From: Candidatus Eiseniibacteriota bacterium
Lineage (GTDB): Bacteria > Eisenbacteria > RBG-16-71-46
Reading direction: 5' to 3'
Assembly (NCBI GenBank): GCA_963707915.1
Contig: OY970178.1
Coordinates: 701,821-765,820 of the forward strand
DNA length: 64,000 bases
Part shown: in pieces, positions 5,900 to 40,857 of the stretch
Layout: each line of letters opens with the position of its first letter
Position numbering within the stretch: the first letter of the stretch is position 1
Translations under genes and position numbers: made by a program
Notes under the pieces: model-generated
Told to the model about the DNA's origin: nothing
What the model saw: the letters and a program-made list of their open reading frames with translations, nothing else
Databases searched by the model: none

Positions 5900-6153
5900 T
5901 GGGAGCAGCGGGCGCCAGGGTCTCCCGGGACCGGGCGCCCGCTGGACCGGCGTCTCCGGCCGCCCGGGGGACAGCACCCGGACCCGCGGACGATACCGCC
6001 ATTCCGCAACCCCCCCGGCTCCACGTCGTGCGCGATGCCCGGCCGCGTTCGCTCCGGCTCGGCCGAAAGGGCGGCCGAACCGCGGACTGCGGGAGCCCGG
6101 CCCGTGGTACGGTCCCTGCATTCGCCGTAGCGGCCCTGGGCCAGGAGCTCTCC

Positions 6154-21687: not shown

Positions 21688-22209
21688 ATGGACGACCTGA
21701 AGAAGTACATCCGCGACGTCCCCGACTTCCCCCGCAAGGGGATCGTCTTCAAGGACATCACGCCGCTGCTGCACGATGCGGCGGCCCTCGGCCGTGCCGT
21801 CGAGCGGATGAGCCAGCGCGCCGCGCGGCCGGCAGGCGTCGTGGCCATCGAGTCGCGCGGCTTCGTGTTCGGCACCGCGCTCGCGCTGCACTGGCGGGTG
21901 CCGCTGGTGCTGGCGCGCAAGTTCGGCAAGCTGCCCGGCCGGACCGTCCGGCAGGTCTACTCGCTCGAGTACGGCGAGGACACGCTCGAGATCCACGCGG
22001 ACGCACTCGGCCCCGGGCAGCAGGTCGTGGTGGTGGACGACCTGCTGGCGACCGGCGGCACCGCCCTTGCCACGGTCCGCCTCGTCGAGCAACTCCAGGC
22101 CCGGGTGCTGGCGACGCTGTTCCTCATCGAGCTGGCCGGGCTCGGCGGCCGTGAGCGCCTTGCCGGATACCCGGTGGAGTCGCTGCTGCGCTACGAGGTG
22201 ACGGGGTAG
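21688..22209 (+). CDS. apt: Adenine phosphoribosyltransferase
   Basis: 173 aa; PRTase motif VVVVDDLLATGGT and Apt N-terminus (IRDVPDFPRKGIVFKDITPLL). Confidence 0.9.
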   Translation: MDDLKKYIRDVPDFPRKGIVFKDITPLLHDAAALGRAVERMSQRAARPAGVVAIESRGFVFGTALALHWRVPLVLARKFGKLPGRTVRQVYSLEYGEDTLEIHADALGPGQQVVVVDDLLATGGTALATVRLVEQLQARVLATLFLIELAGLGGRERLAGYPVESLLRYEVTG

Positions 22210-22308
22210 GGGCGGCTCGACGTCCGCAAAGAGAGGGGCGCCGTGCCGGCCCATGTCGCAGGTGCCGGACGGCGCCCCTCCCGTATGGCGTGCTGGTCCC
22301 GGGGCCTG

Positions 22309-22509
22309 CTAGACCTTGCGGACGTTCGCGGCCTGAAGTCCCTTGGGGCCCTGGTTCACGTCGAACTCCACGGCATCGCCTTCGGCGAGCGTCTTGAATC
22401 CTTCGCCAGAGATCGCCGAGAAGTGGACGAACACGTCCTCGCCACCCTCCTGAGAGATGAATCCGAACCCCTTCGCTTCGTTGAACCACTTCACGGTGCC
22501 ACGAGCCAC
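22309..22509 (-). CDS. Cold-shock protein (CspA family)
   Basis: 66 aa; RNP1/RNP2 motifs ([23 protein letters not shown]); GTG start with AGGAG 6 nt upstream on minus strand. Confidence 0.85.
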
Positions 22510-22754
22510 TTGGAACTCCTTGATGCCGGGTCCGGGGACCCTCTCGTGCCGCCTGGACGCGGCGGCTGCGCCCGGCCACTCTGACCGGCTTCGGTCTGCC
22601 CGCGATGACGGAACCAGCGGCCGGGGCCGGGGCGGACCCCGACGCACGGACCGGAGGTTCGACCCCCCGCAGGTGACCAAGGCGGACGCAAGTATCGGCA
22701 GGGCCCGCTGGAGTGTCAAGCTCCCGGTGGGGCCTGCGGCGCTCCATCCCCCGG

Positions 22755-22784
22755 TTCGCACGGACCCGGAGCGAGAGGTAGAAT
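22755..22784 (+). promoter_or_regulatory. Putative promoter upstream of GH57-like gene (TTCGCA-N18-TAGAAT)
   Basis: -10-like TAGAAT 22779-22784 and -35-like TTCGCA 22755-22760; by-eye only. Confidence 0.2.
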
Positions 22785-22844
22785 CATCGCCCGCGCGCGT
22801 GGAGCCGTCACGCACTCGCAGGCACCATCGACCAGGAGTCCCCC

Positions 22845-25800
22845 ATGCGGGCGCCAAAGGCCGCCGCACTCGCAGCCCTCCTCCTCCTCCCGGAGGCTTT
22901 CGCCGCCGCGGCGGCCCCGGCCGCGGCCGCCGCGGATCCGCCCATCTACGTCGCCTTCCTCTGGCACATGCACCAGCCGATCTACTGGCCCTACGAGTCC
23001 GTCCTCCAGACCGAGGCCGGCCAGCGCTACCCCTACTCGGTGGTGGACATCCACAGCCAGCGCAGCGGGCCGTATACGGGATGGCCCAGGGACGCGGTCG
23101 AGAAGGGGATCGCCGCGGGCCTCGGCCATCTCGGTGCACAGGTCAGCCTCAGCGGCTCCCTGATCGAGAACCTCGACGCCCTCGAGGCGGGCGGCAACCC
23201 CAACTTCCAGCAGTGGAAGAGCCCCTGGACCTCGATCCACTCCCAGACCACCGTCCTCGGCCACCCGCGCGTCGACCTGGTCGGCTTCGGCTACCACCAT
23301 CCGCTCATGGGCCTGATCGAACCCGCCGACCTGCGCAGGCAGATCCAGGCCCACCGCGGCCGCCTCGCCTCCGCGTTCGGCGGCGCCACCTCGCGCGGGA
23401 TCTTCCCGCCCGAGAACGCGTTCACGCAGCGCATGATCCCGGCCCTCGCGGCCGAGGGGCTCGAGTGGGTCCTGGTGGACAACGTCCACTTCGACCGCGC
23501 CGCGACGGCCTACCCCTACAGCACCGGCGGGAACCTGGTCGAACCGAACCGGGCCGACGTGCGCAACCCGGACCCTGCCGACTGGGTCCAGCTGAGCGGG
23601 GTCTGGGCCCCGACGCCGGTCTCCGGCGCGTGGGGCCACCGCCCGCACTTCGTCCAGTACCGCGACCCGGCGAGCGGGCAGACCTCGCGCATGATCGCCG
23701 TCCCGGCCGATCGCTACCTGGGCAACGAGGACGGCCGCGGCGGCTTCGGCGCCCTGCAGTACGACGCCGTCATGAGCCAGCTCCAGCCCTACAACACCGA
23801 TCCCGCGCATCCGCTCCTCGTCGTGCTCCACCACGACGGTGACAACTACGGCGGCGGGAGCGAGAGCTACTACCACGGGAACTTCCAGGCCTTCGTGGAC
23901 TGGCTCGCGGCCAACCCCGGCCGCTTCGTCGGCACGACGGTCGAGGACTACCTCGAGATGTTCCCGCCCGACACCGGCGACGTGATCCACGTCGAGAACG
24001 GCTCGTGGAGCGGCGCGGACAACGGCGACCCCGAGTTCAAGAAGTGGCTCGGCGATCCCGGATCGACCGGCTACAGCCCCGACCGCAACTCCTGGGCGGT
24101 GGTGACCGCCGCCCGGAACGTCGTGGCCACCGCCGAGCTGATCGCCCCGGCGGCGTCCGGCACCATCGACGCGTGGCGCGACCTGCTCAACGCCGAGGCC
24201 AGCGACTACTGGTACTGGGACGGCGCGCAGGGCGGCATCTGGGACGCGCACCCCACGCGGGCAGCGAACCAGGCCGTGCTGCACGCCCAGCCGGTCGTGA
24301 GCGGCGGCGCGGACCTCGCCGGGCCGACCGTGTTCGTCCCACAGCGCGAGCCCTACAACCCCGGCGGCACCGAGTGGACGATCGCCCAGTCCGGCGATTT
24401 CGAGGTCTGGACCTTCGCCTACGACGTGAGCGGCCTCGCGTCGGTCACCCTCCGCTACCGGCTCGACGATGACGGGCAGCTGGCGGTGGACGCGGCGGCG
24501 AACGACACCTACGCCGGCGGGGCCGGCGTGGGCGCGTGGGTCTCCGTGGCCTGCACGGCCAGCGACCTGGCCTCGACGACCGACCCGCTGCCGCTGCGCC
24601 GGGCGAAGCGCTACGCCGCCCGCGTCACCGGGCTCGCCAGCGTCCTGGTGGACTACTACATCGAGGCCGCCGACTCGCTCGGCAACCTGAGCCGCTCCGC
24701 CATCCAGCACGTCTGGGTGGGCGCGGGCGGCGCTGGCCCGACCGGCGTCACCGTCATCCCCGGCGCCCCGCAGCAGACCGACTCCGTCACGATCACCGTG
24801 CACGGCACGACGCAGCCGGCGCGGCTCCACTGGGGCGTCAACGGTTTTGCCACCCCGATCCCGGCCTACCGTCCGGCCGGCACCACGCTCTACAACGGCA
24901 CCGGCCCGGCGGTCGAGACCCCGTTCAACGTGACGGGCGGCGACCTGGCGCTCACGCTCGGCCCGTTCGCCGCCACCGGCCAGGCCGTGACCTCGCTGGA
25001 CTTCGTCATCCACTACGACGCCGGGGCCTGGGACAACAACGGCGGCCAGGACTGGCACGTCCCGGTCGCGGGCGGCGCCGGCCGGAGGCTCTACGTCATG
25101 GACGGCGCGCTCGACGCGGGCGTCGCCGTGGCCTGCAGCAACGCCGGCGTGGACCTGTACCTGGACTGGAACGGCACCGAGCTCTACGCCGCCACGCCGG
25201 CCGCCGGCGCGGCGGGGTGTGACGTCTTCATCCTGGTGGCCGGCACGCGTGGTGTCCTGCGCGGCGCGCCCTGGGCGAAGGCCGGCCAAATCGGCACGTG
25301 GGCCGCCTTCCTCGGCAACGAGAGCTCCAACAACTGGTGCGGATGGTCCGACCAGCAGGGGACGGTGGGCAAGGCCGCCGCCAGCTTCCTCGAGGGGACC
25401 ATCGACCTCGGCGCCGAGCTGGGGAGCGTGCCGCCGAGCGTCTTCGTCGCGGTCGGGCGCTACGCAACCGCCGACGGCGGCGCCCTGCTCGCCCAGGCGC
25501 CGGCCGGCAACGGCGACGCGAACCTCGACGGCACCGAGTACCTCGAGTTCCCGCTCGGCACCACGGCCGTGCGGCCGGAGCCCCGGGGGACGGCAGTGGC
25601 CCTGCTGCCCCTGGCGCCGACCCCGCTCCACGGACCGGCCTCGATCACCTACGTGCTGCCGCGCGCAGCGCACGTATCGCTCGAGGTGTTCGACACCGGC
25701 GGCCGGCGCGTGGCTGCGCTGGTGGACGGGGTGGAGCCCGCCGGCACGCGCGGGGCGCGGTGGGACGCGGCCGGCCTCGGCCCCGGCGTCTACTTCGTGC

Positions 25801-25853
25801 GGCTGCGCGCCGCGGGGGAGAGCATCACCCGGCGCGCCGTCGTGATCCGCTAG
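22845..25853 (+). CDS. Secreted glycoside hydrolase, GH57-like N-terminal catalytic region, C-terminal FlgD-Ig/T9SS-type sorting domain
   Basis: Signal peptide; [13 protein letters not shown] resembles the GH57 conserved HQP region; C-terminal about 80 aa ([30 protein letters not shown]...GVYFVRLRA) matches the FlgD-like C-terminal sorting domain pattern. Confidence 0.6.
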
Positions 25854-25997
25854 GGAAGCCGGGCCCGCGTTCCGGCCCGCATCCGGACGGGGCAGCGTGC
25901 ATCGAAGGGGTATCCACGCGCCCGGTGCTAAGATGCCACCGCGCCGGGCGCCCGCACGGGCCCCTCCCTTCGATCACCCACTCCCAGGAGGTTTCAC

Positions 25998-26603
25998 ATG
26001 GGCGTTCTGGTCGGCCGCAAGGCCCCCGACTTCACGGCGGCCGCCGTCCACGGCGACGGCAGCATCGTGGAGTCCTACAACTTCTCCGCCGCCACCCGTG
26101 GCAAGTACGCCGTCGTCTTCTTCTGGCCGCTCGACTTCACCTTCGTCTGCCCCTCCGAGCTCATCGCCTTCCACCACCGCCTCGAGGACTTCAAGTCCCG
26201 CAACGTCGAGGTGGTCGGGGTGTCGGTGGATTCGCAGTGGACCCACAACGCGTGGCGCAACGTCCCGGTGGCGCAGGGCGGCATCGGAGCGGTGGGCTAC
26301 ACCATGGTCGCCGACCTCTCGCACGCGGTCTGCAAGGCCTACGACGTCGAGCATCCCGACGGCACGGTCGCCTTCCGCGGATCCTTCCTCATCGACCGCG
26401 ACGGCGTGGTGCAGCACCAGGTGGTGAACAACCTGCCCCTCGGCCGCAACATCGACGAGATGCTGCGCATGGTGGACGCCCTGCAGTTCCACGAGGCGAA
26501 CGGCGAGGTCTGTCCGGCCGGCTGGCAGAAGGGCGGGAAGGGCATGAAGGCCACGCCGCATGGCGTCGCCGACTACCTCGCCGCCAACGCCGCGAAGCTC
26601 TGA
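25998..26603 (+). CDS. Peroxiredoxin (typical 2-Cys, AhpC/Prx1 subfamily)
   Basis: Peroxidatic Cys motif FFWPLDFTFVCPSE and resolving Cys in GEVCPAGW; RBS caggagg. Confidence 0.9.
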   Translation: MGVLVGRKAPDFTAAAVHGDGSIVESYNFSAATRGKYAVVFFWPLDFTFVCPSELIAFHHRLEDFKSRNVEVVGVSVDSQWTHNAWRNVPVAQGGIGAVGYTMVADLSHAVCKAYDVEHPDGTVAFRGSFLIDRDGVVQHQVVNNLPLGRNIDEMLRMVDALQFHEANGEVCPAGWQKGGKGMKATPHGVADYLAANAAKL

Positions 26604-30453: not shown

Positions 30454-31500
30454 TCACCGCCCCGCGCCCGGCGGCTCGCCTCCGCCCCGCCGCGAGGCGT
30501 CGCGCGGGCTGCCGCCGAAATCCATGCGGCGCAGCGCCGTCGCGGTGATCAGCCCGATGACGATCATCGCGACGGCGAAGCCGAGGTACGCGATCCGCCA
30601 GTTGATGCCGCTGGTCATCATGCTGTACTCGGACATGCCCCCGATCCCCGCGATCAGGTTGAGCGGCAGGAACACCACGTTGATCCGGGTCAGGTTCTTG
30701 AGCAGCTGGTTCATGTTGTTGTTGACCAGGCTGCCGCGGGCGTCCATCAGCCCCGAGAGCACCGTGGAGTAGATCTCCGCCTGCTTGAAGCACTGGTCGT
30801 TCTCGATGACCAGGTCGTCGAGGAACTCCAGATCGGCGGTGGAGAACCCGGTCTTCTCCGCGTGGACCCGCAGCCGCGCCAGCGCGACGCCGTTGGAGTT
30901 GATGGCGTTGAGGTAGTAGATCAGGCTCTCGCTGAGGTTGAACATCTGGATGAGGTGCTTGTTCTCCATCGAGGTGTTGATCTTCTGCTGGAGGTCCCGC
31001 GCGATCATCTTGATGACCTTGAGGTGCTCGAGGTAGTGCTGGATGGTGTGCGCCAGCAGCCCGAGCAGGACGTCGGCGGGACGGTGGAACGCGGGAACAT
31101 GCCGGGCCCCGCTGGTCAGGGGCAGGGTGTCCGTCACGATGACGGCCATGCGCCGCTCGAGCAGCAGGATCCCGATCGAGGCCACGTCGAAGTAGAACGT
31201 GTCCCTGCCCGAGTAACTGGTCGGCCGTTTCCAGATCAGCAGCACGCGGCCGGGCGCCAGCTCGACGCGGGGCACCTCGTCGGGGTCCAGCGCGGAGGAC
31301 AGCGTGTGCTCGTCCAGGCCGAAGCCGGTGCGCAGCAGGTCCCGCTCGGCGGCGTCGGGGTTCACGAAGACCTGGATGGCGGGGTCCAGCGAGGTGGCCG
31401 GTACCATGGCGCCGTCCGCCAGGTCGAAGAGTTGGATCATCTGCGCCTCCCGCAGCGGGTGCCGGTGGACCTCGGGGACATCGCGCTGCGTTCGAAGCAT
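30454..31500 (-). CDS. corA: CorA-family divalent cation transporter with non-canonical GMS in place of GMN
   Basis: C-terminal two TM helices around FLPLNLIAGIGGMSEYS (canonical CorA is YGMNF); start ATG 31500 (alternative 31440). Confidence 0.7.
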   Translation of the reverse strand: MLRTQRDVPEVHRHPLREAQMIQLFDLADGAMVPATSLDPAIQVFVNPDAAERDLLRTGFGLDEHTLSSALDPDEVPRVELAPGRVLLIWKRPTSYSGRDTFYFDVASIGILLLERRMAVIVTDTLPLTSGARHVPAFHRPADVLLGLLAHTIQHYLEHLKVIKMIARDLQQKINTSMENKHLIQMFNLSESLIYYLNAINSNGVALARLRVHAEKTGFSTADLEFLDDLVIENDQCFKQAEIYSTVLSGLMDARGSLVNNNMNQLLKNLTRINVVFLPLNLIAGIGGMSEYSMMTSGINWRIAYLGFAVAMIVIGLITATALRRMDFGGSPRDASRRGGGEPPGAGR

Positions 31501-31665
31501 GGGAGCCCCACCCGCGGACCGGTCCCATCCGATCCGCGCGTCCCGCAGCCGCGCACCGGCCAATATGGCGCGGGTGCGCATGCCGGGCAAGCGGGCCCGC
31601 GCGGGCCGGCCCACGCCACGCGGCGGTCGCTTGACGCGGGCCGCGCGGCTCCCGAACATGCCGCC

Positions 31666-32928
31666 ATGAACCCGCTCCCGACGCAGTCCCCGCTCGCGCC
31701 GTCCCGCTTCCCGTTCTACCCCGCCGTCTCGAGCATCCACGACGGCCAGGCGCTCCGCGACCTGGTCGAATCCTACGCGGCGCCGCTGCGGGCCCTCGGG
31801 GGCGAGGCGTGGGCGCCCGCCGCCGGGCCGGCGTCGTCCACCCCGCTGGTCTTCGTCGCCACCGGCGGCACGGAGCGCCTGATCCTCGACGGCGCGGGCT
31901 TCGACGCGCGCGAACCGGCTTTGCTGGTCGCGCACCCGGGGCACAACTCGCTGCCGGCCGCGATGGAGGTGCTCGCGCGCGTCCAGCAGCTCGGCATCCG
32001 CGGGGAGATCGTCTACCTCCGCGGGCCGGAGGACGACGCCGGGCTGCAACGGCTCGCCGCGGCACTCCACGACCGGCAGGTGCGGCGGGCCCTCCGCGCG
32101 AGCCGCATCGGGCTGGTGGGGGAGCCGTCGGACTGGCTGGTCGCGAGCAGTCCTCCGCTCGCGACGGTCACCGAGGTCTGGGGGCCGGCCGTGGTCCCGG
32201 TCCCGCTCGAGTCGATCCTCGCCGACCCCGACGCCGAGGTCGCGGCCCGCGGAGCCGCTCTCGCCGACGATTTCCGTGCGGGCGCGAGCGCGCTGGTGGA
32301 ACCGGCGGAGTCCGACCTGCTGGCCGCCGGAAACGTTTACGAGCTGCTCCGCCGGGTGGTGCAGGCCGGGCGCTTCGACGCGGTCGCGGTGCGGTGCTTC
32401 GACCTCGTGGTGCGCAAGCGGACCACCGGCTGCCTGGCACTGGCCCGCATGAACGAGCAGGGCGTGATCGCCGGCTGCGAGGGCGACCTGATCGCCACCG
32501 TCGCGATGCTCTGGGTCCGCCGGCTGCTCGGCAGCATCTCGTGGATGGCCAACCCGTCACGGATCGACCTGGACGGCCCCCGCCTGAGCCTCGCCCATTG
32601 CACCGTCCCCCGCAGTCCGGGCGGCGCGTATCGCCTGCGCTCGCACTTCGAATCGGGCCTGGGGGTCGGCATCCAGGGCACGCTCCCCGCCGGCCCGGTC
32701 ACGCTGGTGCGCATCGGCGGCGCCCGCATGGAGCGGCTGCTGGCCGTCGACGGGGACCTCGTCCGCAACACCGACCACCCGGACCTGTGCCGCACGCAGG
32801 TCGAGGTCGAGGTCGGCCGCGACGTGTTGCAGGAGTTGCTCGACCGGCCGCTCGGCAACCACGTGGTGGTCGTGCCGGGTCACCACGCCGCCGCCCTCCG
32901 GCGGTGGCACGGGACGATGATCGCCTGA
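31666..32928 (+). CDS. Hypothetical protein, possibly sugar isomerase-like fold
   Basis: 420-aa ORF with good start context; weak resemblance to L-fucose/L-arabinose isomerase-like proteins (FVATGGTE, RCFDLVVRKRTTGCLALARMNEQGVIAGCEGDL); product not secure. Confidence 0.5.
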   Translation: MNPLPTQSPLAPSRFPFYPAVSSIHDGQALRDLVESYAAPLRALGGEAWAPAAGPASSTPLVFVATGGTERLILDGAGFDAREPALLVAHPGHNSLPAAMEVLARVQQLGIRGEIVYLRGPEDDAGLQRLAAALHDRQVRRALRASRIGLVGEPSDWLVASSPPLATVTEVWGPAVVPVPLESILADPDAEVAARGAALADDFRAGASALVEPAESDLLAAGNVYELLRRVVQAGRFDAVAVRCFDLVVRKRTTGCLALARMNEQGVIAGCEGDLIATVAMLWVRRLLGSISWMANPSRIDLDGPRLSLAHCTVPRSPGGAYRLRSHFESGLGVGIQGTLPAGPVTLVRIGGARMERLLAVDGDLVRNTDHPDLCRTQVEVEVGRDVLQELLDRPLGNHVVVVPGHHAAALRRWHGTMIA

Positions 32929-33818: not shown

Positions 33819-34086
33819 CCGGGGCCGTCACGGCGCGGCGGCGTCCTTCGCCGGCCCGGGACCCGCGGCCGGGCGATCGTCCGCGTCCTTTCGCGCGGTG
33901 GGCGACAGGCCGCCGTGCTCATCCACCGGCGGGCGCCGCTGACCCTGCTTCCGCCACGCCGACTCCCGCGCTCGTCACCCGATTGCACCCTTCCCACGGC
34001 ATGCGCGCGCGGTGTACTCTTCCCGCTTCCGCCGCCAGCCCATGGCGGCCATCCATTTTGGCGCCACGCGCCTCGGGAGGTCTTCG

Positions 34087-35595
34087 ATGGCAGCACAGCC
34101 CGCCGTCCCCACGTACGCCCCGCGCGGCTACGAGTTCGCCGACGCGGGCCTGGCCCGCAACTGGATCGGCGGCGAGTGGCGCGATTCGTCCACCGGCGCC
34201 ACCCTGGACGTCGAGAACCCCCGCCACGGCCGCACGATGGGCCGGGTGGTCGTCTCGCCCCCGGCCGACGTGGACGCCGCCGTGCAGGCGGCCCGTGCCG
34301 CCCTGCCGGGCTGGCGCGCGCTGGCGCTGCGCGAGCGCGCCCAGGTGCTCTACCGCCTCAAGGCCATCCTCGAGCGCGACATGGAAGAGCTGTGCTGGCT
34401 GCTCTCCGCCGAGAACGGCAAGGTCTACAGCGAGGCCCTCGGCGACGTCGGCAAGGGCATCGAGTGCATCGAGTTCGCGGCCTCGCTCGCGATGGGCGGC
34501 GCCGGACCGCAGCTCGACGTGAGCCGCGGCGTGAACTGCAAGGTCAGCTACGAGCCGCTCGGCGTGGTCGCCGGCATCACGCCGTTCAACTTCCCGATGA
34601 TGGTGCCGCTCTGGATGATCCCGAATGCGCTGATGGGCGGCAACGCCTTCATCCTGAAGCCCGCGTCCAGCGTCCCCTTCGGCCCGACCCGCATCGCCGC
34701 CGCGTTCGAGGAGGCCGGCCTGCCCCGGGGGATCCTCAACATCGTCAACGGGCGCCGCGAGGTGGTGAGCGCCATCGTCCAGCACCCCGGCATCGCCGCC
34801 GTGCAGTTCGTCGGCTCGACCGCGGTCGCGAAGAGCCTCTACGCGCAGGGCGCGTCCCTCGGCAAGCGCATGATGTGCCTGGGCTCGGCGAAGAACCACG
34901 CCATCGTGGTGCCCGACGCCGATCCCGAGCTCACCGCCTCGACCATGGTGGCCTCGGCGTACGGCTGCGCGGGCCAGCGCTGCATGGCCGCCACGCTCAT
35001 GGTCGCCGTCGGCGACGTGCAGCACATCATCGACGACATGGCCCGGCGCACGCGCCTGCTGAAGCTCGGCCAGGACATGGGCCCGATCATCACCCGCGAG
35101 GACCACGCGCGCATCCTGGCGCACATCGACCGGGCCGAGGCGATGGGCGCCCGGATCCTGGTGGACGGCCGCAAGGCCACCGTCGACGGCTGCGCCGGAG
35201 GCCACTGGATCGGCCCGACGCTCCTCGATGGCGTCACCCCGGACATGCCGTGCGCCCGCGAGGAGATCTTCGGGCCGGTGTTCGGCATCGTGCACACCCG
35301 GACGCTGGACGAGGCCATCGACTTCGCCAACGGCAGCCCTTACGGCAACGGCGGCGCCATCTTCACGCAGAGCGGCAACGTCGCCCGGATCGCGGCCGAG
35401 CGGCTCGACGTCGGCATGTTCGGCGTGAACATCGGCATCCCGGTGCCGCGCGAGCCGTTCGCCTTCGGCGGCTGGAAGGACAGCGGCTTCGCCCACATGG
35501 ACATCACCGGCCTGGACGGCTTCCGCTTCTGGACCCGTACCAAGAAGACCACCGAGAAGTGGGCGCAGCAGGCCGGCGGATCGTGGATGTCGTGA
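34087..35595 (+). CDS. mmsA: CoA-acylating (methyl)malonate-semialdehyde dehydrogenase
   Basis: ALDH superfamily; MMSDH-type features (catalytic Cys in GQRCMA, GSAKNHAIVVPDAD); RBS gggagg. Confidence 0.85.
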   Translation: MAAQPAVPTYAPRGYEFADAGLARNWIGGEWRDSSTGATLDVENPRHGRTMGRVVVSPPADVDAAVQAARAALPGWRALALRERAQVLYRLKAILERDMEELCWLLSAENGKVYSEALGDVGKGIECIEFAASLAMGGAGPQLDVSRGVNCKVSYEPLGVVAGITPFNFPMMVPLWMIPNALMGGNAFILKPASSVPFGPTRIAAAFEEAGLPRGILNIVNGRREVVSAIVQHPGIAAVQFVGSTAVAKSLYAQGASLGKRMMCLGSAKNHAIVVPDADPELTASTMVASAYGCAGQRCMAATLMVAVGDVQHIIDDMARRTRLLKLGQDMGPIITREDHARILAHIDRAEAMGARILVDGRKATVDGCAGGHWIGPTLLDGVTPDMPCAREEIFGPVFGIVHTRTLDEAIDFANGSPYGNGGAIFTQSGNVARIAAERLDVGMFGVNIGIPVPREPFAFGGWKDSGFAHMDITGLDGFRFWTRTKKTTEKWAQQAGGSWMS

Positions 35596-35727
35596 GCCCG
35601 GCCCGCCGGCGGGGCGGGGCGCTTCGGCTGGACCGGTAGGTTCACGCGCGTGGCATCGCCGGCGTCCGCGCGACGGCTTCGATCGGCACGGGCTCGATCG
35701 GTTTACGTCTCACTGGAGGCTTCCGCC

Positions 35728-37116
35728 ATGCGGGTGCTCATCAAGAACGGCACCGTCACGACCTCGGTCGACTCCTGCAAGGCCGACGTATGGATCGACG
35801 ACGGGACCATCGTCGCGGTCGCCGCCCCCTCGGCCCGCGCCCGCTTCGAGGCGGACCGCGAGATCGACGCCACCGGCAAGCTGGTGATGCCGGGCGGCAT
35901 CGACGTCCACACCCACCTCGACATGCCCTTCATGGGGACGGTGTCCAAGGACGACTTCGAGACCGGCACGATCGCCGCGGCCCACGGCGGCACGACCACG
36001 ATCATCGACTTCGCCATCCAGGCGCGCGGCGCGGCGCTGCGGGCCGGCCTCGACGCCTGGCACGCCAAGGCCGAGGGCAAGGCGGTCATCGATTACGGTT
36101 TCCACATGATCATGTCCGACGTCAACCCGGCCACGCTCGACGAGATGCAGGGGCTGGCCGGCGAGGGCATCACCTCCTACAAGCTGTTCACGGCCTACCC
36201 GGGCGCGCTCTACTCGGACGACGGCCAGATCCTCCGCGCGCTGCAGCGGGCCCGGGAGGTCGGGGCGCTGGTGCAGATGCACGCCGAGAACGGCATCGCC
36301 ATCAACGCGCTCATCGAGCAGGCCGTCGCGCGCGGCGAGACCGCGCCCCGCCACCACGCCCTCAGCCGGCCGGAGATCGCCGAGGCCGAGGCCACGCACC
36401 GTTCGCTGTGCCTCGCCGAGATCGCGGGCGCACCCATCTACATCGTGCACCTCACCGCCACGCGCGCGCTCGAGGCGGTGACGCGCTTCCGCGAGCGCGG
36501 GCTGCCGGTGTACGCCGAGACCTGCCCCCAGTACCTCTATTGCTCGCTCGACGACATCTCGCGCGAGGGGTTCGAGGGCGCCAAGTTCGTCTGCAGCCCG
36601 CCGGTCCGGCCGAAGGCCATGCAGGACGACCTCTGGCGCGGCCTCGCGAACGGCAACCTCCAGGTGGTGGCCACCGACCATTGCCCGTTCGACTTCGCCA
36701 CCGACAAGCAGATGGGGCGCGAGGTGTTCACCCGGATCCCCAACGGCATGCCGACCATCGAGACGCGGCTGCACCTGCTGTGGGAGGGCGTGCACACCGG
36801 CCGCATCACCGCGCAGCGCTTCGTCGACGTCGTCTCGACCGCCCCGGCGAAGCTGTTCGGGCTCTATCCCCGCAAGGGCACCATCGCCCCCGGGGCCGAC
36901 GCCGACCTGGTGGTCTGGGACCCCGCGAAGCGCCAGGACCTCTCGGTCGCCCACATGCACATGCGCGTCGACTACTCACCCTACGAGGGCAAGGTGGTGC
37001 AGGGCGCTCCCGACCAGGTCCTGTCCCGCGGCCGTGTCATCGTCGACGGCGGCACGTTCCTCGGCCAGCGCGGCACCGGCCGGTTCCTCAAGCGCGCGGC
37101 GTTTTCGCCCATCTAG
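35728..37116 (+). CDS. Dihydropyrimidinase / D-hydantoinase
   Basis: Cyclic amidohydrolase motifs (PGGIDVHTHLDMPFMG, carbamylated-Lys region TSYKLFTAY, VATDHCPF). Confidence 0.85.
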   Translation: MRVLIKNGTVTTSVDSCKADVWIDDGTIVAVAAPSARARFEADREIDATGKLVMPGGIDVHTHLDMPFMGTVSKDDFETGTIAAAHGGTTTIIDFAIQARGAALRAGLDAWHAKAEGKAVIDYGFHMIMSDVNPATLDEMQGLAGEGITSYKLFTAYPGALYSDDGQILRALQRAREVGALVQMHAENGIAINALIEQAVARGETAPRHHALSRPEIAEAEATHRSLCLAEIAGAPIYIVHLTATRALEAVTRFRERGLPVYAETCPQYLYCSLDDISREGFEGAKFVCSPPVRPKAMQDDLWRGLANGNLQVVATDHCPFDFATDKQMGREVFTRIPNGMPTIETRLHLLWEGVHTGRITAQRFVDVVSTAPAKLFGLYPRKGTIAPGADADLVVWDPAKRQDLSVAHMHMRVDYSPYEGKVVQGAPDQVLSRGRVIVDGGTFLGQRGTGRFLKRAAFSPI

Positions 37117-37125
37117 GAGAGCACG

Positions 37126-37998
37126 ATGAGCCCTGTCGTCCGCTGTGGCCTGATCCAGTGCAGCAACCCGCTGAACGATCCGTCGCGTCCGATCGCCGAG
37201 ATCCAGCGGGCGATGATCGACAAGCACCTGCCGTTCATCGAGGCGGCGGGGGAGAAGAAGGTCCAGATCCTCGGCTTCCAGGAGATCTTCAACGGGCCGT
37301 ACTTCTGCCCGAGCCAGGACCCCCGGTGGTACGAGGCGGCCGAGCCCGTCCCGGGGCCCACCACCGAGCTGATGGCGGGCTACGCACGGCGCTTCGAGAT
37401 GGCGATGGTGGTGCCGGTGTACGAGCAGGCCGCGCGCGGCGTGTTCTTCAACACCGCGGCGGTCCTCGACGCCGATGGCCGCTATCTCGGCAAGTACCGC
37501 AAGCAGCACATCCCGCACGTCGCCGGCTTCTGGGAGAAGTTCTTCTTCACCCCGGGGGACGGCGGCTACCCGGTGTTCGCCACGCGCTACGCCCGGGTCG
37601 GCGTGTACATCTGCTACGACCGCCACTTCCCCGAGGGCGCGCGCTGCCTCGGCCTGAACGGGGCCGAGATCGTCTTCAACCCGAGCGCGACCGTGGCAAG
37701 CGTCTCGCGGCACCTGTGGAAGCTCGAGCAACCCGCGCACGCGGTGGCCAACGGCTACTACGTGGCCGCGTCGAACCGCGTCGGCACCGAGCCGCCGTGG
37801 AACATCGGCCGCTTCTTCGGCAACTCGTACTTCGTGAGCCCCCGTGGCCAGATCCTCGCCGAGGCCAGCGAGGACCAGGACGAACTGCTGGTCGCCGACC
37901 TCGACCTCGCCTTCATCGACGAGGTCCGCAAGTCCTGGCAGTTCTACCGTGACCGTCGGCCCGATGCGTACCACGAGATCGAGCGTCGATTCTCGTAG
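37126..37998 (+). CDS. Nitrilase-superfamily N-carbamoyl amidohydrolase (beta-ureidopropionase / N-carbamoyl-amino-acid hydrolase)
   Basis: CN-hydrolase catalytic triad context (FQE, YRKQH, VYICYDRHFPE); adjacent to dihydropyrimidinase. Confidence 0.75.
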   Translation: MSPVVRCGLIQCSNPLNDPSRPIAEIQRAMIDKHLPFIEAAGEKKVQILGFQEIFNGPYFCPSQDPRWYEAAEPVPGPTTELMAGYARRFEMAMVVPVYEQAARGVFFNTAAVLDADGRYLGKYRKQHIPHVAGFWEKFFFTPGDGGYPVFATRYARVGVYICYDRHFPEGARCLGLNGAEIVFNPSATVASVSRHLWKLEQPAHAVANGYYVAASNRVGTEPPWNIGRFFGNSYFVSPRGQILAEASEDQDELLVADLDLAFIDEVRKSWQFYRDRRPDAYHEIERRFS

Positions 37999-38055
37999 CC
38001 GCGGGCCCGCCGGCGCCCGCGGTGGCGCCGGTCCCCCGGCTTCGGCGACTGGAGA

Positions 38056-39381
38056 GTGGTGATGAACACGCAGGAGATGATCGATCTCTGCAAGCAGCAC
38101 ACGATGTACACCTGGGCGGCCACCGACCAGGTCACGCCACTGCCCGTCGCCCGCGCCCAGGGCGTCTACATCTACACGCCCGAGGGCCGGCGCATCCTCG
38201 ACTTCAACAGCGCAGCTGATGAGCGTGCTCATCGGCCACCACCACCCCCGCGTCATCGCGGCGATGAAGGCCCAGCTCGACGAGCTGATCTACGCGTACC
38301 CGCAGACCGCCACGGCGGTACGCGCGCGGCTGGGCAAGCTGATGGCCGAGGTCATCCCCGGCTTTCACACCTTCTTCTTCACGCTCGGCGGCGCCGAGGC
38401 CAACGAGAACGCCATCCGCGCCGCGCGCCTCTACACCGGGCGCCAGAAGATCCTGAGCCGCTACCGCAGCTACCACGGCGCCACCAACCTCACGATGCAG
38501 CTCACCGGCGACCCGCGCCGCTGGCCGAGCGAGCCCGGCTCCCCGGGCATCGTCCGCGTGATGGACCCGCAGCCCTACCGGTTCTCGTTCGGCAGGACCG
38601 ACGAGGAGAAGACCGCCGCGAACCTCGCCTACCTCGAGGAGATCATCGAGTACGAGGGCCCGCACACCATCGCGGCGATGATCATCGAGACGGTCACCGG
38701 CACCAACGGCGTGCTCCCGCCGCCCGCCGGCTACCTGCAGGGCCTCAAGCGGCTGCTCGAGAAGCACGGCATCCTGCTGATCTGCGACGAGGTGATGTGC
38801 GGCATGGGCCGCACCGGCAAGATGATGGCCTACGAGCACGGCGGCATCGTTCCCGACATCGTGCACGATGGCCAAGGGGCTCACCAGCTCCTACTTCCCG
38901 CTCGGCGCCATGGGCGTCTCCGACGCCATCGCCGCGCACTTCCGCAAGAACGTCTTCTGGGGCGGCCTCACCTACAACTCGCACCCGCTCGGCCTCGCCA
39001 CGGCGGAGGCGGTCATCCAGGTGATGATCGACGAGAAGATGATCGAGAACGCCGCCCGGCTCGAGCGGGTGATGCGGCGGGAGATGGACCGGCTCCAGGC
39101 GAAGCACCGCTCGGTGGCCGAGGGCCGCTGCATCGGCCTGTTCGGGATGATCGACATCCGCAAGAACGCCAAGCGGCGACTCGATCGCGCCGTACAACGG
39201 CAGCCACCCGGCCATGGCGAAGCTCCAGGCGTTCTTCCGCGAGAACGGCCTGTTCACCTTCGTGCGCTGGTCCAGCTTCACCTGCAAGCCGCCGCTGTGC
39301 ATCACCGAGGAGCAGCTGCTCGAGGGCTTCGAGATCATCGATCGCGGCCTCGACATCACCGACGCGGCGTTCGAAGGATAG
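38056..39381 (+). pseudogene. Class-III (omega) aminotransferase, likely beta-alanine aminotransferase; disrupted by three +1 frameshifts
   Basis: Four in-frame segments that concatenate into a roughly 440-aa class-III aminotransferase: frame 1 38056-38211, frame 2 38213-38863, frame 0 38868-39173, frame 1 39175-39381 (stop TAG 39379-39381). Confidence 0.8.
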
Positions 39382-39462
39382 GAGAGAAAGGCGTGACCGC
39401 AACACCCCGGTGCGAGCTCGCGGCAGAGACCGTGACTTCCCCGCTCCACGGCCGCAACCCCC

Positions 39463-40857
39463 ATGGCGATTTCGCACCTGTCGGGAGGTGACGTGCTGAA
39501 AGCCGCAAGACGGACGACCCAGAGGCTCAAGAACCTGACGGACATGGAGGTCGGGTTCACGCTGTCCCAGGCCATCGCGGAGGCCTCGCGCTGCCTGCTG
39601 TGCCACGACGCGCCGTGCTCCAGGGGTTGCCCCGCCGGCACCGACCCGGGCACGTTCATCTGGAAGCTGCGGGTCCGGAACGTCCGCGGGGCGATCCGGA
39701 CGATCCGGCAGAACAACCCGCTGGGCGGGGTCTGCGGCGTCGCCTGCCCGGTCGAGCGCCTGTGCCAGAAGAACTGCAGCGCCACCGGCATCGACCGGCC
39801 GATCGAGATCGGCCGGCTCCAGCGGTTCCTGGTCGAGCAGGGCTGGGGCATGGGGTTCGACCCCATCGCCCAGGCGCCACCGCGGAAGGAGTCCGTGGCC
39901 ATCGTCGGGTCGGGCCCCGCCGGGCTCACCTGCGCCGTGGAACTGGCGCGCGCCGGCATCCAGGCCACGGTCTTCGAGGCCCGACCGCGACCGGGCGGCG
40001 TGCTGCGCTACGGCGTGCCCCGGTTCCGCCTGCACGAGGAGTTCCTCGACCGCGAGCTCGAGGACGTCCGCAAGCTCGGCGTCACCTTCCGCTGCAACAC
40101 CACGATCCAGCGCGACCAGGCGGGACGGCTGCTCGAGAAGGGCTACGCCGCGGTGTTCATCGCCCCGGGGGTGTGGGAGCCCCGGCGCCTGCCCCTGCCG
40201 GGAGCCGGCCTCCGGAACGTGACCACGGCCACCGAGCTGCTCGCGGGGGTCCGCGCCGGCGCCGCGGCCGCGGTCGCCCGGATGGTCCGCAAGAAGAACG
40301 TCGCCATCATCGGCGGCGGCTCCGTCGCCATGGACGTCGCCAGCACCTGCAAGGCCCTCAGCGCCGCCAAGGTGTACTGCATCTGCCTCGAGAGCCTGGC
40401 CGAGATCCCGGCGTCGAAGGCCGATCTCGGCATGGCGCTCGAGAACTTCGTGGTCGTCAAGCCGCAGGCGCAGGTCACGCGGATCCTGGGACTGGCCGGC
40501 AAGGTCACCGGCGTGCAGGGCATCGAGACCGTGTGGAAGCGGCCCGGCTCGTTCGCGCCCGCCAACGCCCGGCCCGTGCCTGGCACCGAGTTCAAGCTGC
40601 GGGTCGACGCGGTGGTCTTCTCGATCGGCTCCGGCCCCGCCGCGGAGGGCCGGGAGCTCGCCGCCGGCCTCAAGACCGCCCGCGACGGGCTGATCCAGAC
40701 GAAGCGGGACGGGGTCTCCACCTCGAAGCCCGGGATCTTCGCCGGCGGCGACATCGTGCGCGGACCGGCGCTCATCGTGAACGCCGTGGCCGACGGCAAG
40801 GCGGCCGCGAAACGCATCCTCGAGTCGCTGGGCGCGGGGGAGAACCACCATGACTAG
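39463..40857 (+). CDS. preT: NAD-dependent dihydropyrimidine dehydrogenase subunit PreT (glutamate synthase small-subunit-like)
   Basis: N-terminal Fe-S cluster Cys motifs (EASRCLLCHDAPCSRGCPAGTD, CGVACPVERLCQKNC) matching E. coli PreT as I recall it; FAD/NAD Rossmann motifs (IVGSGPAGL, IIGGGSVAMD); start ATG 39463 or GTG 39493. Confidence 0.8.
   Translation: MAISHLSGGDVLKAARRTTQRLKNLTDMEVGFTLSQAIAEASRCLLCHDAPCSRGCPAGTDPGTFIWKLRVRNVRGAIRTIRQNNPLGGVCGVACPVERLCQKNCSATGIDRPIEIGRLQRFLVEQGWGMGFDPIAQAPPRKESVAIVGSGPAGLTCAVELARAGIQATVFEARPRPGGVLRYGVPRFRLHEEFLDRELEDVRKLGVTFRCNTTIQRDQAGRLLEKGYAAVFIAPGVWEPRRLPLPGAGLRNVTTATELLAGVRAGAAAAVARMVRKKNVAIIGGGSVAMDVASTCKALSAAKVYCICLESLAEIPASKADLGMALENFVVVKPQAQVTRILGLAGKVTGVQGIETVWKRPGSFAPANARPVPGTEFKLRVDAVVFSIGSGPAAEGRELAAGLKTARDGLIQTKRDGVSTSKPGIFAGGDIVRGPALIVNAVADGKAAAKRILESLGAGENHHD

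What the first reader, a model, noticed from the sequence alone, without database searches (positions are those of the whole stretch)
22845..25853. 1002-aa secreted GH57-like enzyme with a C-terminal sorting domain
The N-terminal [13 protein letters not shown] resembles the GH57 conserved region, suggesting alpha-glucan-active chemistry. The protein is far longer than typical GH57 enzymes, and its C-terminal 80 aa look like the FlgD-Ig/T9SS-type sorting domain found on secreted proteins of several high-GC Gram-negative phyla. The central 500 aa have no motif I can place and may include binding modules.
Basis: partly seen in the sequence, partly recalled or inferred. Interest (0 to 1): 0.45.

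Follow-up and report, generated by a model that had tools for sequence, protein, structure and literature searches.

The report
Secreted GH57/GH119-type starch-degrading enzyme
This gene encodes a large exported enzyme that most likely cuts starch- or glycogen-like sugars outside the cell; it belongs to a widespread but never-tested branch sitting between two known amylase families, so it is a sound annotation rather than a surprise.

Summary
The ORF at 22845-25853 (+) is real: 1002 aa, GC3 0.96, with more than 1,400 homolog clusters.

Domain order: Sec signal peptide; a GH57-type (beta/alpha)7 catalytic domain with all five GH57 conserved regions; helical bundle; beta-domain B1; a CBM25/CBM45-like module (B2); a CBM9-like module (B3); a type-A T9SS sorting domain. 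The nucleophile (E190) and acid/base (D331) positions are invariant.

The refinement is in classification. The protein passes Pfam's GH57 threshold only partially (59 bits; classical GH57s score 180-212). Its clade is closer to the Paenibacillus/Cohnella/Archangiaceae "alpha-amylase" clade that I infer to be CAZy GH119 (about 29% identity, 138 bits) than to classical GH57 (about 21%, 74 bits). It bridges the two families.

Relatives carry CBM25, CBM26, CBM20 or CBM53, and B2 is homologous to CBM25, so an alpha-glucan substrate is likely. Relatives outside the FCB group replace the T9SS tail with PEP-CTERM or MYXO-CTERM-like tags, which fits a conserved extracellular role.

I found no characterised member of this clade, no conserved gene neighbourhood, and no T9SS core genes in the window. 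Verdict: an uncharacterised subfamily of a known kind, of moderate-to-low interest.

The parts
22755..22784 (+). Promoter-like site (TTCGCA-18 nt-TAGAAT), about 60 nt upstream of the start codon, in the divergent intergenic region shared with the cold-shock gene
   Evidence: 2 promoter-like sites found in 22200-26100 against 0.1 expected from shuffles. This is a consensus match only.
22834..22838 (+). Shine-Dalgarno-like AGGAG, 6 nt before the ATG
   Evidence: Read directly from the sequence printed.
22845..25853 (+). Complete CDS, 1002 aa plus stop codon
   Evidence: GC3 0.96; a 100% identical protein (P0001) lies on a 3.6-Mb public contig, and 1493 homologs have E<=1e-3.
22845..22934 (+). 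Sec-type signal peptide (residues 1-30: [30 protein letters not shown]|DPP), with no lipobox Cys
   Evidence: Read by inspection. This region is not conserved in the family (mean identity 0.25) and has low pLDDT. No signal-peptide predictor was available.
22935..24059 (+). Catalytic (beta/alpha)7-barrel domain (residues 31-405) carrying GH57 conserved regions I-IV: HMHQP 41-45, VDLVGFG 143-149, PPENAF 188-193, HHDGDNYG 329-336
   Evidence: 125 of 375 positions are invariant in 35 homologs.
23412..23414 (+). Codon of E190, the predicted catalytic nucleophile (conserved region III)
   Evidence: Aligned to T. litoralis E123 (WLTERV) and to the Glu of WPPEG in an amylopullulanase-type GH57. Invariant in A1 and present in most wider-superfamily members checked.
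23835..23837 (+). Codon of D331, the predicted general acid/base (conserved region IV, H-D-G-D-N)
   Evidence: Aligned to the Asp of LDGEN in a classical GH57 and to HDDGEKFG of T. litoralis (that sub-alignment is weak on its own). Invariant in A1. HDGDN is shared with the GH119-type clade.
24060..24314 (+). Helical bundle (residues 406-490) carrying conserved region V (EASDYWYW 451-458)
   Evidence: helices 412-433, 438-452, 466-486; pLDDT 80-95. One search aligns EASDYWYW with EGSDWFWW.
24357..24740 (+). Beta-domain B1 (residues 505-632), a beta-sandwich that always follows the catalytic module
   Evidence: strands; homologous to the region directly after the catalytic domain in the GH119-type proteins (E 1e-11 to 1e-15).
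24741..25079 (+). Beta-domain B2 (residues 633-745): a starch-binding-module-like domain (PF23166, related to CBM25 and probably CBM45) with LHWGVN and WDNNGGQDW motifs
   Evidence: PF23166 33.3 bits against cut-off 27; hit in 35 of 35 members. E about 1e-18 to both PF23166 copies of P0200; homologous to CBM25 regions of P0226 and of GH119-type proteins (E 1e-7 to 1e-8).
25080..25559 (+). Beta-domain B3 (residues 746-905): an accessory module with no Pfam match and a CBM9-like fold
25560..25616 (+). Variable linker (residues 906-924)
   Evidence: mean identity 0.21; pLDDT below 50 at 906-915.
25617..25850 (+). Type-A T9SS C-terminal sorting domain (residues 925-1002)
   Evidence: TIGR04183 24.1 bits against cut-off 23. 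Por_Secre_tail in 35 of 35 members; six long beta-strands at 931-1000, pLDDT 86-93; the family CTD HMM scores 90 bits here.

Best explanation
The gene encodes an exported, multi-modular, retaining alpha-glucan hydrolase (amylase or amylopullulanase type) of the GH57/GH119 superfamily. The steps below are marked as shown or inferred. (1) A Sec signal peptide takes the protein across the inner membrane (inferred from the sequence). (2) The type-A C-terminal domain routes it through the type IX secretion system, after which it is released or attached to the cell surface (domain shown; machinery not seen). (3) B2, a CBM25/CBM45-like module, and probably the CBM9-like B3, hold the enzyme on starch, glycogen or another insoluble alpha-glucan (homology shown; binding inferred). 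(4) The (beta/alpha)7 barrel cleaves alpha-glucosidic bonds by a double-displacement mechanism, with E190 as nucleophile and D331 as acid/base (positions shown by alignment and invariance; chemistry inferred from GH57). The products would then be taken up by the cell. The gene is transcribed on its own and is not part of a glucan-utilisation operon.
For: Catalytic machinery:
- Pfam GH57 scores above threshold.
- hhalign of the family profile against a classical GH57 gives 97.4% probability, E 1e-11, and matches E190, D331 and conserved region V.
- E190 and D331 are invariant in 35 homologs. The motifs persist in most tier-2 proteins checked and in all GH119-type proteins checked.

Fold:
- The AF2 model has mean pLDDT 75.5.
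- The top Foldseek hits are GH57 amylopullulanases, a 4-alpha-glucanotransferase and branching enzymes, followed by GH38.

Nearest named relatives:
- The Cohnella/Paenibacillus/Archangiaceae/Corallococcus clade is named 'alpha-amylase' by several sources.
- BLASTP to that clade gives E 1e-31 to 4e-35, and the query scores 138 bits on its HMM.
- PMC12093494 reports GH119 in exactly these taxa.
- GH119 holds one experimentally confirmed alpha-amylase (PMC6037648).

Substrate:
- Relatives of the catalytic domain are fused to CBM26 x3 (154 bits), CBM25 and CBM53, and to CBM25 x2 (236 bits) and CBM20 (104 bits).
- B2 hits PF23166 and is homologous to CBM25 copies.

Export:
- The T9SS type-A domain scores above its cut-off and is present in 35 of 35 members.
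- Relatives outside the FCB group carry PEP-CTERM (above cut-off) or a MYXO-CTERM-like tail instead.

The whole length is strongly conserved across phyla, 52-80% identity to the query, which indicates a functional enzyme.
Against: - I found no member of this clade or of tier 2 that has been characterised, and none of the names retrieved for them is a tested function. All of these are MAG proteins except the Thiodictyon homolog.
- Identifying the 'alpha-amylase' clade as GH119 is an inference. It rests on taxa, source names, and residue numbers (Glu231/Asp373) and a length (1290 aa) that I recalled from memory. No GH119 HMM or IgtZ sequence was available.
- The Pfam GH57 match covers only profile positions 1-176 of 291.
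- The query's own direct CBM hits are limited to PF23166, whose equivalence to CBM45 is inferred.
- Neighbouring genes are unrelated to glycan use, both here and in three distant genomes.
- No T9SS core genes and no other T9SS cargo lie in the window.
- Three highly conserved loops (219-259, 293-303, 386-401) are modelled with pLDDT below 50, so the active-site surroundings, and therefore the specificity, are unknown.
- GH57 also contains alpha-galactosidases and transferases.
Confidence: 0.72

Rival explanations
1. Same enzyme type, but in CAZy terms it belongs to GH119 (or to an unnamed sister family) rather than GH57. This is a rival on classification, not on mechanism.
For: The query scores 138 bits on an HMM of the putative GH119 clade and 74 bits on a classical GH57 HMM. 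The query-family HMM scores GH119-type proteins at 168-200 bits and classical GH57 at 46-57 bits. In an NJ tree the query clade, tier 2 and GH119 group together and exclude classical GH57. The HDGDN motif is shared, and B1 and B2 are also shared.
Against: The query passes Pfam's GH57 gathering score, while most GH119-type proteins do not (P0526 only just, 21.4 against 21.2). RefSeq names a 45% identical homolog 'glycosyl hydrolase family 57'. Identity to the GH119 clade is only 25-30%. Conserved region I differs: HMHQP here, HNHMP in the GH119-type proteins. My classical GH57 sample contained only amylopullulanase-type sequences.
Confidence: 0.4
2. A GH57/GH119-fold enzyme with a different specificity. 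Possibilities are another alpha-linked glycan (alpha-galactosides, alpha-1,6- or alpha-1,3-glucans, a bacterial or algal exopolysaccharide), or mainly transglycosylase activity (4-alpha-glucanotransferase or branching type) outside the cell.
For: GH57 includes alpha-galactosidase, 4-alpha-glucanotransferase and branching enzymes (PMC6037648). The last two residues of conserved region V, described there as the best discriminator of specificity, are 'YW' here, which matches none of the specificities described in the passage read (compared). Large clade-specific conserved loops of unknown structure surround the barrel. There is no starch-utilisation gene context.
Against: Every accessory module identified in the superfamily is a starch-binding type: CBM20, 25, 26, 53 and PF23166. 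The nearest clade with functional names is labelled alpha-amylase. Extracellular transferases are rare.
Confidence: 0.2
3. A catalytically dead surface glycan-binding protein or adhesin that only keeps the GH57 fold.
For: 'GH57-like' proteins lacking one or both catalytic residues are known (PMC6037648). The protein carries several binding-type beta-domains and a surface-sorting tag.
Against: E190, D331, D333 and the HQP motif are invariant, and a third of barrel positions are invariant across 35 homologs (125 of 375). The catalytic domain is the most conserved part of the protein, with mean identity 0.72 against about 0.53 for the beta-domains.
Confidence: 0.03

Closest known systems
CAZy GH119 alpha-amylases (founder: Bacillus circulans AM7 IgtZ), represented here by the Paenibacillus/Cohnella/Marinicrinis/Archangiaceae/Corallococcus proteins
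   Same: This is the closest clade carrying functional names. The catalytic domain is 25-30% identical with E 1e-31 to 4e-35, and the query scores 138 bits on the clade HMM. Both have FP.E..F and HDGDN catalytic motifs with the same Glu-to-Asp spacing (141 against 142-144). Both have the B1 beta-domain after the catalytic module and a CBM25-related module. Both are secreted and multi-modular, with about 1,000-1,300 aa or more.
   Different: Conserved region I is HMHQP here and HNHMP in the GH119-type proteins. The GH119-type proteins have FN3 repeats, two canonical CBM25 copies and often CBM20 or CBM26, and they lack B3; no T9SS tail was reported among their Pfam domains. Most of them fail the Pfam GH57 model. 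Equating this clade with GH119 is inferred, not tested with a CAZy model.
Classical GH57 enzymes (T. litoralis 4-alpha-glucanotransferase 1K1W; S. marinus amylopullulanase 7E1Y; A. aeolicus amylopullulanase; amylopullulanase-type proteins of L075-L078)
   Same: They share the (beta/alpha)7 barrel plus helical bundle fold, the five conserved regions and the Glu/Asp pair, and the 'FLWHMHQP' and 'AE.SD(W/Y)(F/W)(W/Y)W' signatures of the amylopullulanase type.
   Different: Sequence identity is only about 21%, and 12-16% in structural alignments. The query scores 59 bits on Pfam GH57 against 180-212 bits for classical members. The query has roughly 50 extra residues between regions III and IV. The classical enzymes tabulated are shorter on average (362-814 aa) and come largely from thermophiles; none of those I examined carries B2, B3 or a T9SS tail.
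Tier-2 uncharacterised relatives (e.g. verrucomicrobial P0226; P0205 with three CBM26 copies; P0200)
   Same: Catalytic domains are about 35% identical. HDGDN is shared, as are B1, a B2-type module (PF23166, CBM25 or CBM53) and, in P0226, B3. Several carry T9SS tails.
   Different: Conserved regions III and IV read FP(A/T)EM(A/C)F or WPAECSF with HDGDNAWG, instead of FPPENAF with HDGDNYGG. They have extra FN3, PKD or CBM26 modules. They are equally uncharacterised.
CBM25 and CBM45 starch-binding modules (plant glucan, water dikinase GWD1 N-terminal domain; bacterial amylase CBM25)
   Same: B2 scores above threshold on PF23166, the GWD1 N-terminal Ig-like domain. B2 aligns with CBM25 copies through the '...WDNN.G.D(W/Y)' segment. 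CBM45-1 lies at the N-terminus of GWD1 (PMC6243121).
   Different: The query itself does not reach the Pfam CBM25 threshold. The equivalence of PF23166 and CBM45 is inferred from position and name only. Binding has not been tested.
T9SS type-A cargo proteins of Bacteroidota (e.g. P. gingivalis RgpB-type C-terminal domains)
   Same: The C-terminal ~75-residue Ig-like beta-sandwich matches TIGR04183. The protein also has an N-terminal signal peptide.
   Different: The host is most probably Candidatus Eisenbacteria rather than Bacteroidota. The usual N-P-F motif reads T-P-L here. The secretion machinery was not seen in the window.

Membership tests
GH57 (Pfam PF03065 / CAZy GH57) | Score above the curated threshold of the family model | tested here: met
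   58.8 bits against a cut-off of 21.2, and 35 of 35 homologs hit. However, only profile positions 1-176 of 291 are matched, and classical members score 180-212 bits.
GH57 (Pfam PF03065 / CAZy GH57) | Five conserved sequence regions, with the catalytic Glu in region III and the Asp in region IV | tested here: met
   HMHQP 41-45, VDLVGFG 143-149, PPENAF (E190), HHDGDNYG (D331), EASDYWYW 451-458. hhalign to a classical GH57 gives 97.4% probability and aligns regions III, IV and V. The residues are invariant in 35 sequences.
GH57 (Pfam PF03065 / CAZy GH57) | (beta/alpha)7 barrel followed by a helical bundle | tested here: met
   AF2 model. Foldseek top hits are 7e1y, 1k1x, 5wu7, 9jlr and 2b5d, with E down to 8e-15.
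GH57 (Pfam PF03065 / CAZy GH57) | Assignment by the CAZy/dbCAN family models, and placement inside the GH57 tree | not testable with these tools
   No dbCAN or CAZy HMMs were available. In my limited tree the clade lies outside amylopullulanase-type GH57, together with the GH119-type proteins.
GH57 (Pfam PF03065 / CAZy GH57) | Retaining alpha-glycosidase or transferase activity | not testable with these tools
   This needs biochemistry.
GH119 (CAZy) | Significant similarity to IgtZ-type alpha-amylases | tested here: inconclusive
   E 1e-31 to 4e-35 at 25-30% identity to the clade I infer to be GH119, and 138 bits on its HMM. The clade's identity rests on taxa (PMC12093494), source names, and Glu231/Asp373 and a length of 1290 aa recalled from memory. 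Whether 25-30% identity falls inside CAZy's GH119 boundary is unknown.
GH119 (CAZy) | GH119-type sequence signatures (HNHMP in region I; FPTELGF; HDGDNS(S/G)GR) | tested here: not met
   The query has HMHQP, FPPENAF and HDGDNYGG. Only the HDGDN core is shared. These signatures were derived here from 16 sequences and are not taken from the literature.
T9SS type-A cargo | C-terminal sorting domain matching TIGR04183 / PF18962 | tested here: met
   TIGR04183 scores 24.1 against a cut-off of 23. PF18962 is sub-threshold here (15 bits) but is hit in 35 of 35 homologs, with E down to 3.5e-12.
T9SS type-A cargo | N-terminal Sec signal peptide | tested here: met
   Judged by inspection only: a basic n-region, a hydrophobic stretch, and Ala-rich sites that could be cleaved. 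No predictor was available.
T9SS type-A cargo | T9SS core machinery encoded in the same genome | not testable with these tools
   None was found among about 35 window proteins scanned, but only 64 kb of a contig of at least 3.6 Mb is available.
Starch-binding modules (CBM25 / CBM45 type) - domain B2 | Score above threshold on a family model | tested here: met
   PF23166 scores 33.3 against a cut-off of 27, and 35 of 35 members hit with best E 1.2e-15. The CBM25 model itself is not reached by the query, but B2 is homologous to bona fide CBM25 copies (E 4e-8 to 1e-6).
Starch-binding modules (CBM25 / CBM45 type) - domain B2 | Binding to starch or cyclodextrin | not testable with these tools
   This needs binding assays.
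CBM9 - domain B3 | Sequence or fold membership | tested here: inconclusive

The most novel reading that the evidence does not exclude
The clade (more than 1,400 90%-identity clusters, almost entirely from uncultured FCB-group and Planctomycetota bacteria) could be a separate, unnamed glycoside hydrolase family, or the missing link that merges GH57 and GH119 into one continuum. Its specificity might differ from those catalogued: it has large clade-specific conserved loops and a 'YW' ending of region V. Its B3 module might found a new carbohydrate-binding family, and B2 would show that CBM45-type modules, known from plant plastidial enzymes, are common in bacteria.
Probability: 0.25. Interest if true: 0.5.

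Novelty: new member of a known kind. Interest (0 to 1): 0.35.

Why it matters
If the prediction holds, this is one representative of a very widespread, strongly conserved extracellular amylase-type enzyme of uncultured sediment, soil and water bacteria (Eisenbacteria, Ignavibacteria, Bacteroidota, Cloacimonadota, Marinimicrobia, Planctomycetota). That points to starch- and glycogen-like necromass as a common carbon source for these groups.

For enzyme classification, the clade is detected by both classical GH57 and GH119 profiles, which barely detect each other. Characterising one member would anchor a large unannotated block of sequences now labelled 'hypothetical' or 'T9SS sorting domain protein', and would clarify how the two amylase families relate.

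It does not challenge any established concept.

Tried and rejected
- **Conserved gene neighbourhood:** none. The window neighbours are sigma-70, apt, a cold-shock protein, peroxiredoxin, and M28 and S9 peptidases. Three distant genomes have unrelated neighbours.
- **Exact-protein contig look-up for the source organism:** not on record. The cluster look-up gave no name.
- **Published GH119 signatures or the IgtZ sequence:** the papers are not held and 'IgtZ' is not found in relevant text.
- **Name look-ups for 28 related clusters:** only 'hypothetical protein' from MAGs.
- **Literature search combining GH119 with phylum names:** poorly targeted and gave nothing. GH57 + T9SS, GH57 + CBM45 and GH57 + Ignavibacteria searches found nothing on this architecture.
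- **AFDB50 fold search:** library unavailable.
- **Model coordinates:** not exposed, so I could not measure E190-D331 geometry.
- **Glu-to-Asp spacing (141) as a GH119 discriminator:** rejected as weak. Spacing already varies within classical GH57: 91 in T. litoralis (PMC5347038) and 96 in A. aeolicus E256/D352 (PDB titles).
- **T9SS core genes or other T9SS cargo in the window:** none.
- **Pseudo-enzyme reading:** rejected because the catalytic residues are invariant.
- **The long antisense ORF 22716..25673 (-):** rejected as a high-GC artefact.
Full report
**1. Observation**

The ORF is exactly as described: 22845..25853 on the + strand, ATG start, 1002 aa.
- GC at codon positions 1/2/3 is 0.71/0.54/0.96, the signature of true genes in this ~73% GC window. 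The 985-aa ORF on the opposite strand is the usual high-GC artefact.
- An AGGAG lies 6 nt upstream of the ATG.
- The divergent intergenic region shared with a cold-shock gene contains two promoter-like sites, one facing each gene, against 0.1 expected.
- [13 protein letters not shown] occupies residues 38-50.
- A 100% identical protein exists on a 3.6-Mb public contig, and 1493 homologs with E<=1e-3 were found among the candidates scored. The gene is real and conserved.

**2. Domain anatomy**

Pfam and NCBIfam give three hits above their cut-offs:

| Model | Bits (cut-off) | Residues |
|---|---|---|
| GH57, PF03065 | 58.8 (21.2) | 37-216 |
| PF23166, 'alpha-glucan water dikinase 1 Ig-like N-terminal domain' | 33.3 (27) | 639-741 |
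| TIGR04183, T9SS type-A sorting domain | 24.1 (23) | 933-1000 |

All 35 aligned homologs hit these same three domain families; for the sorting tail this was scored with Pfam's Por_Secre_tail.

An AlphaFold2 model built on a 35-sequence alignment has mean pLDDT 75.5, with confident domain cores. It shows:

| Residues | Part |
|---|---|
| 1-30 | Signal peptide |
| 31-405 | alpha/beta barrel |
| 406-490 | Helical bundle |
| about 505-632 | Beta-domain B1 |
| 633-745 | Beta-domain B2 |
| 746-905 | Beta-domain B3 |
| 906-924 | Variable linker |
| 925-1002 | C-terminal beta-sandwich |

Conservation is highest in the barrel: mean identity to the query is 0.72, and 125 of 375 positions are invariant. 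It is about 0.53 in B1-B3, and low in the signal peptide, the linker and the tail.

**3. Catalytic machinery**

- HMMER alignments to T. litoralis 4-alpha-glucanotransferase and S. marinus amylopullulanase place 'IFPPENAF' on the nucleophile region ('WLTERVW' and 'IWTPEMAF'). They place 'HHDGDNYG' on 'HDDGEKFG' and 'EASDYWYW' on region V.
- The T. litoralis catalytic pair is Glu123/Asp214 (PMC5347038).
- An independent profile-sequence alignment against a full-length amylopullulanase-type GH57 from a Chloroflexota MAG gives 97.4% probability, E 1e-11, over 253 columns. It aligns E190 with the Glu of WPPEG, D331 with the Asp of LDGEN, and EASDYWYW with EGSDWFWW.
- E190, D331 and D333 are invariant.
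- The fold search returns GH57 enzymes first (7e1y at E 8e-15, then 1k1x, 5wu7, 9jlr, 2b5d), followed by GH38 mannosidases of the same clan.

**4. Position relative to GH57 and GH119**

The protein is a GH57 outlier.
- Classical GH57s score 180-212 bits over the whole Pfam model, while the query scores 59 bits over the first 176 of 291 positions.
- An exhaustive phmmer of residues 31-490 against 1.84 billion cluster representatives finds only 515 clusters at E<=1e-3 and 154 at E<=1e-30. The family is discrete, and few if any classical GH57s can be within range.
- Two tiers are visible. The query clade has FPPENAF and HDGDNYGG. A second tier at about 35% identity has FP(A/T)EM(A/C)F or WPAECSF with HDGDNAWG.

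One distant hit, P0268, led to a third clade.
- It consists of Cohnella, Paenibacillus, Marinicrinis, Archangium, Stigmatella, Hyalangium, Cystobacter and Corallococcus proteins. Many are named 'alpha-amylase' by NCBI or UniRef.
- They are about 1,283-1,300 aa in several Paenibacillus proteins and carry CBM25, CBM20 or CBM26 plus FN3. Most have no Pfam GH57 hit.
- These are the taxa in which GH119 is reported (PMC12093494).
- In P0455 (1290 aa) and P0526 the catalytic Glu and Asp fall at positions 231 and 373. Those are the numbers I recall, from memory, for the GH119 founder IgtZ.
- I therefore take this clade to be GH119. This is an inference.

The three-way comparison of catalytic domains:

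| Measure | Against the GH119-type clade | Against classical GH57 |
|---|---|---|
| BLASTP of the query | E 1e-31 to 4e-35, 25-30% identity | not run |
| Mean catalytic-domain identity to the query clade | 29% | 21% |
| Query score on that group's HMM | 138 bits | 74 bits |
| Query-family HMM scoring that group | 168-200 bits | 46-57 bits |

- Tier 2 is 35% identical to the query clade on average.
- In an NJ tree the query clade, tier 2 and GH119 form one group that excludes classical GH57.
- The classical GH57 HMM scores GH119 members at only 11-14 bits, and the GH119 HMM returned no classical GH57.

So the query clade bridges the two families. My classical sample was only amylopullulanase-type sequences, and no CAZy models were available, so formal assignment remains open.

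**5. Accessory domains and substrate**

- **B1** is homologous to the segment that directly follows the catalytic domain in the GH119-type proteins (E 1e-11 to 1e-15). It is part of the conserved enzyme body.
- **B2** matches PF23166, both PF23166 copies of P0200 (E about 1e-18), and the CBM25-scoring region of P0226 (E 8e-7, through '...WDNN.GQDW...'). It also matches both CBM25 copies of several GH119-type proteins (E down to 4e-8).
- CBM45-1 lies at the N-terminus of GWD1 (PMC6243121), which is the region PF23166 is named for. B2 is therefore a CBM25/CBM45-type starch-binding-module homolog.
- Across the superfamily, the fused modules with a known ligand are all starch-binding types: CBM26 x3 (154 bits), CBM25 and CBM53, CBM25 x2 (236 bits) and CBM20 (104 bits).

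Together with the 'alpha-amylase' clade, this makes an alpha-glucan substrate the best-supported reading. No member of the query clade or tier 2 that I found has been characterised.

**6. Export**

- The N-terminus is a typical Sec signal peptide, judged by inspection.
- The C-terminal domain passes TIGR04183 and folds as a confident beta-sandwich.
- Planctomycetota copies match only to about residue 905.
- Other relatives end in a PEP-CTERM signal (P0137, 17.9 against a cut-off of 16) or a MYXO-CTERM-like tail (P0132, 18.5 against 20).
- So the sorting tag is exchanged to suit the host while the enzyme body is kept. This supports a conserved extracellular or surface location.
- T9SS core genes are not in the window, and no other ORF in the window has such a tail. 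The machinery remains unverified.

**7. Context and source**

- The neighbours are sigma-70, adenine phosphoribosyltransferase, a divergent cold-shock gene, peroxiredoxin, and M28 and S9 peptidases.
- Three distant homologs also sit among unrelated genes. The gene is a stand-alone unit.
- The nearest homologs in species-representative genomes are Candidatus Eisenbacteria MAGs (68% and 64% identity), which is the likely source phylum.
- The family also occurs in Ignavibacteria, Bacteroidota, Chlorobiota, Cloacimonadota, Neomarinimicrobiota, Zixibacteria, Rhodothermales, Balneolaceae and Planctomycetota.
- RefSeq names a 45% identical, 707-aa homolog on a Ca. Thiodictyon syntrophicum plasmid 'glycosyl hydrolase family 57'.

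**8. Verdict**

The refinement is that the enzyme belongs to an uncharacterised clade closer to GH119-type alpha-amylases than to classical GH57.

It is a new member of a known kind: a secreted, multi-modular amylolytic enzyme. The value lies in annotation and classification rather than in surprise. Interest 0.35.

Noticed in passing
window 34012-42091 (+): Apparent reductive pyrimidine-catabolism cluster: aldehyde dehydrogenase (34012-35595), dihydropyrimidinase-like amidohydrolase (35650-37116), carbon-nitrogen hydrolase that may be a beta-ureidopropionase (37126-37998), a GltD/PreT-like NAD(P)-binding subunit (39463-40857), and NAD-dependent dihydropyrimidine dehydrogenase PreA (40850-42091; 480 bits against cut-off 335).
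   Followed up: partly
window 22309-22509 (-) and 22691-22719 (-): A 66-aa cold-shock protein gene (CSD, 103 bits) is transcribed divergently from the GH57-type gene. It has a near-consensus promoter-like site (TTGACA-17-GATACT) in the shared intergenic region.
   Followed up: partly
window 5899-7485 (+), 48247-50172 (-), 53521-56016 (+), 46219-47103 (+): Four well-supported coding ORFs (GC3 0.92-0.96; 528, 641, 831 and 294 aa) have no Pfam hit. The three larger ones were also scanned with NCBIfam: two had no hit, and the 831-aa protein had only a weak CehA/McbA metallohydrolase match.
   Followed up: no
window 22845-25853, residues 219-259, 293-303 and 386-401: Three loops are among the most conserved stretches of the family, e.g. 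'YEPNKADV.NPNP.DWVQLNGLWAPT', '[12 protein letters not shown]' and '[20 protein letters not shown]'. They are nevertheless modelled with pLDDT below 50. They are clade-specific insertions around the barrel, and their role (substrate cleft, lid, or metal site) is unknown.
   Followed up: partly
relatives P0137, P0132, P0136, P0168 (not in the window): The same enzyme body carries different C-terminal sorting tags in different lineages: a T9SS domain in FCB phyla, PEP-CTERM in P0137, a MYXO-CTERM-like tail in P0132, and hydrophobic/Arg-rich tails in P0136 and P0168.
   Followed up: partly
L082 (NZ_CP020372.1, Ca. Thiodictyon syntrophicum plasmid pTs485) 7599-9722: A 707-aa homolog (45% identity) in a cultivated purple sulfur bacterium lies on a 485-kb plasmid directly downstream of pqqBCDE. 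It could serve as an experimentally tractable member of the clade.
   Followed up: no
window 51186-53519 (+) and 2936-5899 (+): A 777-aa patatin-like phospholipase (RssA-like domain, with weak similarity to CBASS and anti-phage phospholipases), and a 987-aa protein whose only recognisable part is a parvulin-type peptidyl-prolyl isomerase domain at residues 584-741.
   Followed up: no
window 30454-32070 (-) versus 30862-32928 (+): Two long ORFs with coding-like GC3 (0.88-0.91 and 0.85) overlap on opposite strands. The + strand product (688 aa) has only a weak match to sulfoquinovose isomerase at residues 395-660. Which of the two is the real gene was not resolved.
   Followed up: no
GH119-type proteins P0455, P0513 (not in the window): In the putative GH119 clade, conserved region I reads H-N-H-M-P instead of the H-Q-P of GH57. 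Only a few of these proteins (P0475; P0526 at 21.4 against 21.2) reach Pfam's GH57 threshold, so Pfam-based annotation misses the catalytic domain in most of them.
   Followed up: partly
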